DNA of 64,000 nt from assembly GCF_056712565.1 (NCBI RefSeq), contig NZ_CM160072.1; one strand, given 5' to 3'. Shown here in pieces: positions 35,301 through 38,300 of this stretch. Positions within the stretch are counted from its first letter, which is position 1, and every line of letters starts with the position of its first letter. A program made the position numbers.

Positions 35301-38300
35301 ATCGCCCGGCTGGTAGCGTTAGAGAGTATATCGGGCGCGCGATTGGGAATATAACCCAGTTCATCAAGAGCGGCGGCAATCTTGCCGCGTAGAGCGACGG
35401 AAACCTGCTCCGGGTTGCGTAAAAAACGGCTGACCGTCATTTTGGTCACGCCTACACGGTCAGCCACATCCTGAAGTACGGGTCTTTTCTTTTTCATCGT
35501 CCTGAAGGTACAAAAGAGATAGATTCTCTTAGTTTAACACGGACGCATCAGAACCTTCCCGATTCCTCAGGAAGGTTTGTGAGATAAATTTAGACTGGCG
35601 GTAAATCGAACAGCAGGATTTCACTGTCGCTATCAGCATGGATGGAAATCGCCTGCTCATCCCAGATTGCCAGGCCATCGCTGGTCGAGGCTTTCACGCC
35701 GTTAATGGTGACATTGCCTTTCACCACCTGGATCCAGACGCGGCGTTCAGCGGCAATCTGATGCACCGACTGCTCATCTTTCACCAGCGCCCAACGATAC
35801 AGTTCCATATCCTGATGCACTTTCAATGAACCATCACGCGCATCCGGCGAAAGCACCAGTTGTTTGCCCTGCACGGCATCGAAGCGACGCTGTTCATAAC
35901 GCGGCGTAATGCCGTTTTCTTCAGGCATGATCCAGATCTGATACAGATGCAGACGCTCGGTGCTGCTTGGGTTGTACTCTGAGTGACGAATACCCGTACC
36001 CGCACTCATAATCTGGAACTCGCCCGCCGGAACCTGCTCTTTATTGCCCATGCTGTCCTGATGCTCAACAGTACCTTCCAGCACGTAGGTCAAAATTTCC
36101 ATATCTTTATGCGGGTGAGTGCCGAAGCCCTGCCCTGCTTCAATCACGTCGTCGTTAATCACGCGCAGCGCAGAGAAGCCCATAAAATTCGGATCGTAAT
36201 AGTTGGCAAAAGAGAAAGTATGCCAGGAGTCCAGCCAGCCATGATTTGCATGACCGCGTTCATTTGCTTTGCGTAAGTAGATCATTTGTATTCGCCCCCT
36301 GAATGATTTCGATGGGCTTAGTGTGGACCCGATCCGCCTGGGATGATAGAGGGTGAAAATTGACCCCTCTGTTCAAAAAAATTGAACTATTCGAGGGGCC
36401 ATCAAACTTACCTCGCGAGAGTCACTGCGGAGGGAGAAGATTGCTCAAAACCGCGTTCAAGGATTTCCAGATTCGTAAGAACTTCAGATTCCTTGACGTA
36501 ATTTGGCGCACCGTTGGTGATGGTTTGATACAACGCATCATAAACGCGCCCATAATCGCCCATCTCTGGCTTCATCTCTTCTCTTACCGTCACGCCCTCG
36601 TCATTGACATACTCCAGCACACCGACCGAATCATCCGCTGCGAATCCTGGTTCGCCCGGCATAATATTAGCCTTCAGGCTGGTTTCCTGCTGGTCGATAC
36701 CGTATTTAATAAACGAACCTTTCTTACCGTGAACGATAAATTTCGGATAATCGATTTTCACCAGATGGCTGGTTTTGACGATGGCTTTTAGATCGCCATA
36801 AAACAGCTGCGCTTCAAAGGTGTCGTCCGGATTGGCTTTATTACGCAGGCTGCGGATGTCATAAGCGACGTGATCCGGGCGACCGAACAGAGAAATAATC
36901 TGGTCCATCGTATGCACACCAAGGCCATAGAACGCGCCATCCTGCGGCAGCCCCGGTTTGGTTTCTGCCACCGGGCGGTAATAGTCAAAATGGCTTTCCA
37001 CTTCGACAATCTCTCCCAGCTTGCCGCTTTCAATCGCTTTTTTCGCTGTCAGGAAGCAGGAATCAAAGCGACGATTCTGATACGGCGTAACGATCAGCCC
37101 TTTGCTTTTCGCCAGTGCAAACAGCTCTTTCGCCTGCGCAATTGTCGGAGTGAACGGTTTTTCGACCAGCACATTTTTCCCGGCTTCCAGCGCGCGCTTC
37201 GCGTACTCGAAGTGGCTGTCCGCGTGGGTGCAGACGACAACCAGCTTAACATCGGGATCGTTTAGCACTTCGTCGAGATCGCTGGTGAAATGGATATGGG
37301 AATAAATGGGGGCCTGTTCTTCCGGCTTCGCATGGCGGCGAAAAATATGCGCGACATGCCAGCTATCCTTGCGGTTAAGTACATACGGCAGATGGTAACG
37401 GGTGGTGCTTTTGCCGAAGCCAATAAAGGCGCAGTTAATGACCATGATTTCGTCCTTTTTAAGGTGGTTATTTACACCTTAGCGCAAAGCGGACGTGGTT
37501 CCTACTGGAGTGCGCATAACGAACACAAGCACTTCCCGAGGATAAATTGAGAACGAAAGGTCAAAAAAAAAGCCAGCACCCGGCTGGCTAAGTAATACTG
37601 GAAGCAATGTGAGCAATGTCGTGCTTTCAGGTTCTCCGCGAGGGTCTTCCTGATCGCGAGACAATAATAATCATTCTCATTCGCACTTGTCCAACACTTT
37701 TTGCAAAAAAATGCATTTGACTCGCATTTGAAAGTCAATGATGTTGAAAGGGACATTTACCCCAAAGAGGACAAAGGAATGAGTGAGATAGTAATACGCC
37801 ACGCAGAAACACGCGATCACGAAGCCATCAGGCAGATTCACGCCCAGCCGGAGGTGTATTACAACACGCTACAGGTGCCTCATCCTTCAGAACAAATGTG
37901 GCTGGAACGACTCACCGCTCGCCCTGGCATCAAGCAGTTAGTCGCCTGTATTGATGGAATCGTCGTAGGCCATCTCACCATTGACGTGCAACAACGCCCA
38001 CGCCGCAGTCATGTTGCCGATTTTGGTATCTGTGTCGACTCTCGCTGGAAGAACCGCGGCGTCGCCAGCGCCCTGATGCGCGAAATGATTGATATGTGCG
38101 ACAACTGGTTGCGGGTAGATCGCATCGAGCTAACGGTGTTCGTCGCTAACGCGCCAGCAATTAAGGTCTATAAAAAATTCGGCTTTGAGATTGAAGGGAC
38201 TGGCAAAAAGTACGCATTACGTAATGGTGAATATGTCGATGCGTATTATATGGCGCGGGTGAAGTAAGATAGTGCCCTTTTTCTGAGATGGAAAAAGGGT

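What the first reader, a model, noticed from the sequence alone, without database searches (positions are those of the whole stretch)
37563..37690. RyhB sRNA and its Fur-box promoter conserved between yhhX and yhhY
The full RyhB sequence with terminator is present on the minus strand with a Fur-box-like motif directly upstream. Two ORF-track frames (37479-37664, 37502-37756) overlap it and are spurious. This is known biology, included because automated ORF calling would mis-annotate the locus.
Basis: established knowledge. Interest (0 to 1): 0.2.

Follow-up and report, generated by a model that had tools for sequence, protein, structure and literature searches.

The report
RyhB iron-stress small RNA gene
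This is the ordinary, well-known E. coli ryhB gene, a Fur-repressed small RNA that shuts down iron-using proteins when iron is scarce; it is identical to the K-12 copy, and the two reading frames lying over it are annotation artefacts.

Summary
The finding is correct and ordinary. Rfam's RyhB model (RF00057) scores 83.1 bits against a gathering score of 55 at 37564-37628 (-). It is the only gathering-level RNA hit in the 64-kb window. The 95-nt gene (37657-37563, minus strand) is base-for-base identical to K-12 ryhB (b4451), as is everything upstream as far as the yhhY start codon. A sigma-70 promoter (TGGACA-18-TATTAT) ends 7 nt before the transcript start. A 16/19 Fur box (37660-37678) covers the -10 hexamer. 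A seven-pair G+C-rich hairpin followed by a T run (nine T in a row, the first closing the stem) ends the gene. yhhX and yhhY flank it. Their start codons lie upstream of the RyhB transcript start, and both run through the terminator. A 1-bp indel gives each a different C-terminus in K-12. Neither is kept in E. albertii or 14 other Enterobacteriaceae orthologs, and neither matches any Pfam family. Both are nevertheless deposited in GenBank as "hypothetical protein" (for example UTI89_C3950), so the mis-annotation warning holds. Current RefSeq records annotate nothing here, not even ryhB. Novelty: already known. Interest: low.

The parts
37563..37657 (-). ryhB gene. The 95-nt RyhB small RNA runs from the transcript start (G at 37657) to the end of the terminator T run (37563).
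   Evidence: Identical to K-12 b4451 (NC_000913.3 3580922-3581016). The Rfam RF00057 hit at 37628-37564 scores 83.1 bits against a gathering score of 55.
37688..37693 (-). -35 hexamer TGGACA of the ryhB promoter.
   Evidence: Promoter scan: TGGACA, 18-nt spacer, TATTAT, 10 of 12 matches. It is the only promoter-like site in 37300-37950. The GACAA portion is invariant in 17 Enterobacteriaceae orthologs.
37664..37669 (-). -10 hexamer TATTAT, ending 7 nt upstream of the transcript start.
   Evidence: Invariant in 17 orthologs.
37660..37678 (.). Fur box (GAGAATGATTATTATTGTC on the RyhB strand), spanning -21 to -3 and covering the -10 hexamer.
   Evidence: 16 of 19 matches to the Fur consensus, a unique match in the window where 0.01 are expected. 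It lies inside the block GTGCGAATGA(G/T)AATGATTATTATTG (37686-37662), in which 24 of 25 columns are invariant across 17 orthologs. At least 13 of 19 positions match upstream of the core in 103 of 115 cross-species RyhB loci, against 3 of 115 shuffled controls.
37591..37628 (-). Conserved single-stranded and stem-loop core that base-pairs with target mRNAs. It includes the 9-nt sodB seed GACAUUGCU at 37620-37612.
   Evidence: Mean column identity is 0.989 across 17 orthologs. The 22-nt core is exact in at least 120 loci of Enterobacterales, Vibrionales and Aeromonadales. The 9-nt perfect complement to K-12 sodB covers -4 to +5 around the AUG.
37563..37589 (-). Intrinsic terminator: stem AGCCAGC/GCUGGCU, loop CGGGU, then the T run (37571-37563; the first T closes the stem). 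Together with the upstream AU-rich linker, this is the expected Hfq-binding 3' module.
   Evidence: Terminator scan. Across 83 sequences the stem is 96.2% paired, with 35 double-sided compensatory cells against 5.6 in shuffles (0 of 500 shuffles reach it); pairing drops to 24-54% when the register is slid.
37588..37617 (-). Mini-ORF for the proposed nonapeptide RyhP (M)AHIASSIT, with an ATT start and a TAG stop. It is present and intact. Its function is doubtful.
   Evidence: Sequence read directly. The proposal is from Neuhaus et al. 2017, PMC5331693. The stop is in frame only in Escherichia.
37479..37664 (-). Spurious 61-aa ORF with a TTG start inside the -10 hexamer and Fur box.
   Evidence: The start lies 7 nt upstream of the transcript start. 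The 1-bp indel at 37534 gives K-12 a different C-terminus (53 aa). In all 14 non-Escherichia orthologs the frame stops within 63 nt of the core start, at +30 or +33 in 13 of them. No Pfam match.
37502..37756 (-). Spurious 84-aa ORF with an ATG start in the yhhY-proximal spacer.
   Evidence: The start lies 99 nt upstream of the transcript start. It is frameshifted relative to K-12 (95 aa) and absent in E. albertii, where there is a stop at -104 and no start before +40. The region downstream of the terminator has only 0.315 column identity. No Pfam match.

Best explanation
The locus is the canonical, intact ryhB gene of a phylogroup-B2-type E. coli.

Shown from the sequence: a sigma-70 promoter whose -10 hexamer is buried in a Fur box, a 95-nt transcript, and an intrinsic terminator.

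Inferred from established work on K-12 (Masse & Gottesman 2002; Geissmann & Touati 2004; Beauchene et al. 2015, PMC4676285):
- When iron is plentiful, Fe2+-Fur sits on the box and blocks RNA polymerase.
- When iron is scarce, Fur leaves and RyhB is made.
- Hfq binds the AU-rich linker and the U tail.
- The conserved core pairs with the translation-initiation regions of mRNAs for non-essential iron proteins (sodB, sdhCDAB, acnB, ftnA and others). This blocks ribosome binding and triggers RNase E-dependent decay, which spares iron.

The two long ORFs overlapping the gene are chance open frames, not genes.
For: - Rfam RF00057 scores 83.1 bits against a gathering score of 55, with a full-length match.
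- The 95 nt are identical to curated K-12 ryhB, and all 121 nt upstream to the yhhY ATG are identical too.
- The promoter, terminator and Fur box sit at the expected spacing.
- The 131-nt promoter plus gene is at least 99% identical in 5413 of 5424 complete E. coli genomes, always on the chromosome.
- The conservation profile across 17 syntenic Enterobacteriaceae orthologs is that of a small RNA gene. Column identity is 0.93 for the promoter, 0.94 for the Fur box, 0.99 for the core and 0.91 for the terminator, then collapses to 0.32 immediately after the T run.
- The terminator stem shows compensatory changes.
- The Fur box is conserved upstream of 103 of 115 cross-species copies.
- The yhhY-ryhB(-yhhX) synteny is conserved.
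- A 9-nt seed is complementary to the sodB start region.
- ORF evidence: both starts lie upstream of the transcript start, both ORFs cross the terminator, a 1-bp indel at 37534 shifts both relative to K-12, and neither is retained across genera. Neither has a Pfam match.
Against: - Nothing in the sequence argues against it.
- Expression, Fur dependence, Hfq binding and target repression were not and cannot be measured here. They are transferred from K-12 on the strength of 100% identity.
- The whole-molecule fold is not more stable than shuffles (z = -0.67). That is usual for small RNAs that act through base-pairing, whose seed must stay single-stranded.
- The sodB 9-mer alone is only modestly unlikely by chance (28 of 1000 shuffles).
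Confidence: 0.97

Rival explanations
1. RyhB here is a dual-function RNA. Besides base-pairing, it is translated from an ATT codon into the nonapeptide RyhP (MAHIASSIT), which gives an advantage under iron limitation, as proposed for EHEC.
For: The mini-ORF at 37617-37588 (-) is intact and identical to the published one. Neuhaus et al. 2017 (PMC5331693) report ribosome footprints on it and a competitive-index effect of plasmid-borne RyhP in iron-free M9 medium.
Against: [quoted passage not shown]
- Seven of the nine codons lie inside the invariant base-pairing core, so conservation of the peptide cannot be separated from conservation of the RNA.
- The stop codon is in frame only in Escherichia. 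In the other 14 orthologs a 1-nt indel in the linker moves it, and the frame then runs on for variable lengths, with the next stop between +32 and +383 from the core start.
- The published evidence rests on overexpression in a single study.
Confidence: 0.08
2. One or both long ORFs (84 aa at 37502-37756; 61 aa at 37479-37664) are real protein-coding genes overlapping ryhB.
For: Both are open in this strain. Both are deposited as hypothetical proteins in many GenBank E. coli records: the 84-aa product is identical to UTI89_C3950, and the 61-aa product is seen on at least 1000 contigs.
Against: - The deposits are automatic calls with no function attached.
- Both starts lie upstream of the only promoter-like site on that strand, and both ORFs must read through a strong terminator.
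- A 1-bp indel changes both C-termini in K-12.
- The 84-aa ORF is absent in E. albertii, and the 61-aa frame is closed at or before +63 in all 14 non-Escherichia orthologs.
- The downstream third of each ORF is unalignable even within the family.
- Neither has a Pfam match.
- PGAP does not call either one.
Confidence: 0.01
3. The copy is a silent or decayed relic, a RyhB-like sequence that is no longer expressed or functional.
For: None specific. Neighbouring genes in this lineage do decay: yhhZ/tssD carries an internal stop.
Against: Identity to the functional K-12 gene is 100% across promoter, Fur box, transcript and terminator. The sequence is nearly invariant across 5413 E. coli genomes.
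Confidence: 0.01

Closest known systems
E. coli K-12 ryhB (b4451; Rfam RF00057 RyhB)
   Same: The 95-nt transcript, the promoter, the Fur box and the whole spacer up to the yhhY ATG are base-for-base identical. Strand and flanking genes (yhhX, yhhY) are the same.
   Different: There are only three differences, all downstream of the terminator and outside the gene: 37560 T>C, 37539 A>T, and one extra A at 37534.
RyhB paralogs and orthologs in other Gammaproteobacteria (for example Salmonella RyhB-1 and RyhB-2/IsrE, Yersinia RyhB1/2, Vibrio RyhB)
   Same: They share the exact 22-nt core ACAUUGCUCACAUUGCUUCCAG, an upstream Fur box and an intrinsic terminator.
   Different: Their 5' stem-loops, linker lengths and genomic contexts differ, and many genomes carry two copies. 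The window has a single copy of the yhhX/yhhY-linked type. The named examples come from my own knowledge. The loci actually retrieved are listed.
Functional analogs: PrrF1/2 (Pseudomonas), FsrA (Bacillus)
   Same: They follow the same logic: a Fur-repressed small RNA that spares iron by repressing mRNAs for iron-containing proteins (established knowledge, not tested here).
   Different: They have no sequence homology to RyhB and are not members of RF00057.

Membership tests
RyhB (Rfam RF00057) | The covariance-model score reaches the curated gathering threshold over the full model. | tested here: met
   83.1 bits against 55, model positions 1-67 of 67, E = 3.6e-14.
RyhB (Rfam RF00057) | Conserved core sequence used for target pairing. 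| tested here: met
   The core is identical to K-12. The 22-nt core is exact in at least 120 loci across three orders.
RyhB (Rfam RF00057) | Fur box overlapping the promoter (iron- and Fur-repressed transcription). | tested here: met
   The sequence element is present: 16 of 19 matches, covering the -10 hexamer, and conserved in orthologs. Actual Fur binding and repression were not measured.
RyhB (Rfam RF00057) | Rho-independent terminator with a U tail, preceded by an AU-rich linker (the Hfq-binding module). | tested here: met
   A 7-pair stem followed by a T run. Compensatory changes in the stem across 83 sequences. Hfq binding itself is not testable here.
RyhB (Rfam RF00057) | Orthologous position between yhhX and yhhY in Enterobacteriaceae. 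| tested here: met
   Annotation in K-12 and ATCC 11775. tblastn synteny in 14 further genomes.
RyhB (Rfam RF00057) | Complementarity to the translation-initiation region of known targets (sodB). | tested here: met
   A 9-nt perfect complement to sodB -4..+5, using the K-12 sodB sequence; 28 of 1000 shuffles reach 9 nt. sodB is not in the window.
RyhB (Rfam RF00057) | Induction under iron limitation, and Hfq- and RNase E-dependent target decay. | not testable with these tools
   Inferred from K-12 literature (PMC4676285; Masse & Gottesman 2002 from my own knowledge) on the basis of sequence identity.
Dual-function (coding) small RNAs, e.g. SgrS/SgrT, with RyhB/RyhP proposed | A translated small ORF conserved as a peptide, independently of the RNA function. 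| tested here: not met
   The ORF is present, but its length is not conserved outside Escherichia, and its conserved codons coincide with the pairing core. Translation is not testable here.

The most novel reading that the evidence does not exclude
The intact ATT-initiated mini-ORF at 37617-37588 (-) is really translated into the RyhP nonapeptide. That would make RyhB an Escherichia-specific dual-function RNA, as Neuhaus et al. 2017 proposed. The data here neither confirm nor exclude it.
Probability: 0.08. Interest if true: 0.35.

Novelty: already known. Interest (0 to 1): 0.06.

Why it matters
This is a textbook regulator, so it adds nothing to the biology. Its practical value is for annotation. 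In the RefSeq/PGAP records examined the locus carries no feature: the three records inspected in full show nothing in the spacer, and 12 of 12 rows sampled across the match ranking list no feature under the match. Older GenBank submissions fill the same locus with two "hypothetical proteins" that have spread into protein databases. Anyone mining this window for novel small proteins or unannotated intergenic elements should mask 37479-37756. The cross-species data also explain why the 61-aa frame is open only in Escherichia: a 1-nt linker indel moves a TAG between frames.

Tried and rejected
1. Whole-molecule folding of RyhB against shuffles gave z = -0.67. This is uninformative, and I rejected it as a test of RNA-gene status.

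2. RNAalifold on the 83-sequence mixed ortholog and paralog alignment recovered only 5 pairs, because the 5' parts are not homologous across orders. I replaced it with an explicit count on the terminator helix.

3. Full-length RNAduplex of RyhB against the sodB leader gave an unrealistic 86-nt duplex, and 22 of 500 shuffles did as well. I discarded it in favour of an exact-complement search plus a duplex restricted to the core.

4. The Pfam scan of both ORF products returned nothing, even at E <= 1.

5. The Beauchene 2015 paper supported Fur control of RyhB in general, but a text search for an explicit description of the ryhB promoter Fur site found no passage.

6. I did not use the large protein-homology searches, structure prediction or metagenome scans. 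The exact look-up and the comparative DNA data had already settled the ORF question.

Full report
**Observation**

Reading 37300-37950 on the minus strand shows the sequence GCGATCAGGAAGACCCTCGCGGAGAACCTGAAAGCACGACATTGCTCACATTGCTTCCAGTATTACTTAGCCAGCCGGGTGCTGGCTTTTTTTTT at 37657-37563.

A gathering-threshold Rfam scan of the whole 64-kb window, both strands, returns one hit only. It is RF00057 RyhB at 37628-37564 (-), at 83.1 bits against a gathering score of 55, E = 3.6e-14, covering model positions 1-67 of 67.

**Identity with K-12**

I fetched the curated K-12 record. There ryhB (b4451) is annotated at 3580922-3581016 on the minus strand, between yhhX and yhhY.

- The 95-nt K-12 gene and window 37563-37657 (-) are identical.
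- All 121 nt from the transcript start up to the yhhY ATG are identical too.
- The yhhX-yhhY spacer differs at only three places, all downstream of the terminator: 37560 T>C, 37539 A>T, and one extra A at 37534.

**Anatomy**

| Element | Coordinates (minus strand) | Evidence |
|---|---|---|
| -35 hexamer TGGACA | 37693-37688 | Only promoter-like site in 37300-37950; 18-nt spacer |
| -10 hexamer TATTAT | 37669-37664 | Last base is 7 nt upstream of the K-12 5' end, G at 37657 |
| Fur box | 37660-37678 | 16/19 match to GATAATGATAATCATTATC; only match with up to 3 mismatches in the window, 0.01 expected |
| Terminator | 37589-37563 | Only terminator-like site: AGCCAGC-CGGGT-GCTGGCT at 37589-37571, then a T run to 37563 |

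The Fur box spans -21 to -3 and covers the whole -10 hexamer. That is the geometry expected for repression by promoter occlusion.

It clips 3 nt of the -35 hexamer.

**Context**

- The flanking ORFs are yhhX (36408-37445, -) and yhhY (37779-38267, +).
- Window 30000-50000 is 100% identical to E. coli ATCC 11775 and to several ExPEC/ST95-type genomes.
- The 131-nt promoter plus gene is at least 99% identical in 5413 of 5424 complete E. coli genomes, always chromosomal and usually single copy.

**Comparative evidence that this is an RNA gene**

These come from Enterobacterales, Vibrionales and Aeromonadales, and many genomes carry two copies.

- **Synteny.** tblastn with the window's YhhX and YhhY shows yhhY divergently upstream of the core in 30 loci, with yhhX also downstream in 14.
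- **Conservation profile.** I aligned the window, K-12 and 15 further orthologs. Fourteen of these have both yhhX and yhhY; the fifteenth, Pluralibacter, has yhhY only within the short stored stretch. Mean column identity is:
  - 0.93 for the promoter
  - 0.94 for the Fur box
  - 0.86 for the 5' stem-loop
  - 0.99 for the core
  - 0.91 for the terminator
  - 0.32 for the 84 nt after the T run

  In the block GTGCGAATGA(G/T)AATGATTATTATTG, 24 of 25 columns are invariant.
- **Fur box across species.** Across 115 loci, the best Fur-consensus match upstream of the core is at least 13 of 19 in 103 of them. Only 3 of 115 shuffled controls reach that.
- **Terminator helix.** On an 83-sequence alignment the terminator helix is 96.2% paired. 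It has 35 double-sided compensatory cells against 5.6 in shuffles (0 of 500 shuffles reach it). For example, one A-U pair becomes C-G in 14 sequences and G-C in 4. Pairing falls to 24-54% when the 3' arm is slid.

**Mechanism**

The sequence shows a promoter buried in a Fur box, a short terminated transcript, a conserved unpaired core, and an AU-rich linker plus U tail.

As an illustration of target pairing, RyhB nt 38-46 (GACAUUGCU, 37620-37612) is a perfect complement of K-12 sodB positions -4 to +5 around the AUG. A core-restricted duplex of -19.3 kcal/mol extends over the sodB Shine-Dalgarno sequence. A 9-mer of this kind arises in 28 of 1000 shuffles, so this is supportive rather than decisive.

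The remaining steps are inferred from K-12 literature and transferred on the basis of 100% identity:
- Fe2+-Fur represses transcription, and iron limitation derepresses it.
- RyhB pairs with its targets with the help of Hfq.
- Translation is blocked and RNase E degrades mRNAs for non-essential iron proteins.

Sources are Beauchene et al. 2015 (PMC4676285), and Masse & Gottesman 2002 and Geissmann & Touati 2004 from my own knowledge.

**The two ORFs**

Five lines of evidence say they are not genes.

1. **No transcript to carry them.** Their start codons are at 37664 (inside the -10 hexamer and Fur box) and 37756. Both lie upstream of the transcript start at 37657. Both frames run through the intrinsic terminator, and no other promoter-like site exists on that strand.
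2. **Frameshift in K-12.** The 1-bp indel at 37534 shifts both frames relative to K-12, giving 53 aa and 95 aa products with unrelated C-termini.
3. **Loss in other genera.** In E. albertii the 84-aa frame has a stop at -104 and no start codon before +40. In all 14 non-Escherichia orthologs the 61-aa frame is closed within 63 nt of the core start, at +30 or +33 in 13 of them. The cause is a 1-nt T indel in the linker. It puts the TAG at RyhB nt 68-70 into that frame everywhere except Escherichia.
4. **Unconserved tail.** The last third of both ORFs lies in the unalignable post-terminator DNA.
5. **No family match.** Neither has a Pfam match, even at E <= 1.

**Annotation practice**

An exact-sequence look-up finds both products in public databases as "hypothetical protein". 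The 84-aa product is identical to UTI89_C3950 (ABE09379.1). The 61-aa product represents a cluster seen on at least 1000 contigs, including E. fergusonii and Shigella records.

RefSeq/PGAP records annotate nothing in this spacer, neither the ORFs nor ryhB. That holds for Nissle 1917, ATCC 11775 and 12 of 12 records sampled across the ranking. Of the records examined, only the curated NC_000913.3 carries the ncRNA feature.

**A less ordinary reading**

Neuhaus et al. 2017 (PMC5331693) proposed that ryhB also encodes a nonapeptide, RyhP (MAHIASSIT, ATT start). That mini-ORF is intact at 37617-37588 (-), in the third frame, so it is distinct from both long ORFs. My comparative data weaken the proposal but do not exclude it:
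- Seven of its nine codons are inside the invariant pairing core.
- Its stop is in frame only in Escherichia.

I give it about 8%.

**Verdict**

This is already-known biology: the canonical Fur-repressed RyhB small RNA gene, identical to K-12, overlaid by two spurious ORFs. Interest is low.

Noticed in passing
window 38503-39681 (+): yhhZ/tssD (an Hcp-family protein with an HNH-like C-terminus) carries an in-frame TAA at 39301-39303 where K-12 has TAC (Tyr267). This splits it into 266-aa and 81-aa ORFs. PGAP marks it as a pseudogene ('internal stop') in the identical ATCC 11775 sequence. In Nissle 1917 the situation is reversed: tssD is intact and yhhY has the internal stop.
   Followed up: partly
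window 10997-20412 (-): A chaperone-usher fimbrial operon at 13258-20412 (major subunit, two chaperones, usher, further subunits, one of them frameshifted in ATCC 11775), followed by three hypothetical genes at 10997-13085. It lies between glgP and glpD. As far as I recall this is a strain-variable island not present at this position in K-12; I did not check that against K-12.
   Followed up: no
window 56444-60753 (+): A gene cluster between livJ and rpoH: mannose-family PTS IIA/IIB/IIC/IID components, a phosphoglycerate-dehydrogenase-like gene and a dapA-like gene. It looks like an accessory sugar-utilisation island. I did not compare it with K-12.
   Followed up: no
window 37563-37693; RefSeq records: RefSeq/PGAP annotations leave ryhB unannotated: no feature lies under the match in 12 of 12 sampled records, including a re-sequenced MG1655. 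Older GenBank submissions carry the overlapping ORFs as hypothetical proteins.
   Followed up: yes
L004-L123: The 22-nt RyhB core is exactly conserved in Enterobacterales, Vibrionales, Aeromonadales and Zobellella. Many genomes hold two unlinked copies. One Salinivibrio contig (L040) has two cores 306 nt apart, a tandem pair.
   Followed up: partly
window 37701-38267 (+): The mechanical ORF for yhhY begins at a TTG 26 codons upstream of the annotated ATG (37779). It therefore runs across the ryhB-yhhY spacer almost up to the ryhB -35 region (37693-37688). The annotated ATG start matches both K-12 and PGAP.
   Followed up: partly
window ~1-8100 vs NZ_CP033092.2: The window is collinear and near-identical with ATCC 11775 from about 8.1 kb to 64 kb. 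Window 50001-63999 has 2 mismatches, and window 30000-50000 has one 1-bp length difference. It goes out of register in roughly the first 8 kb, which implies an indel near the rtcR/glpG/glpR region, where ATCC 11775 has frameshifted genes.
   Followed up: no
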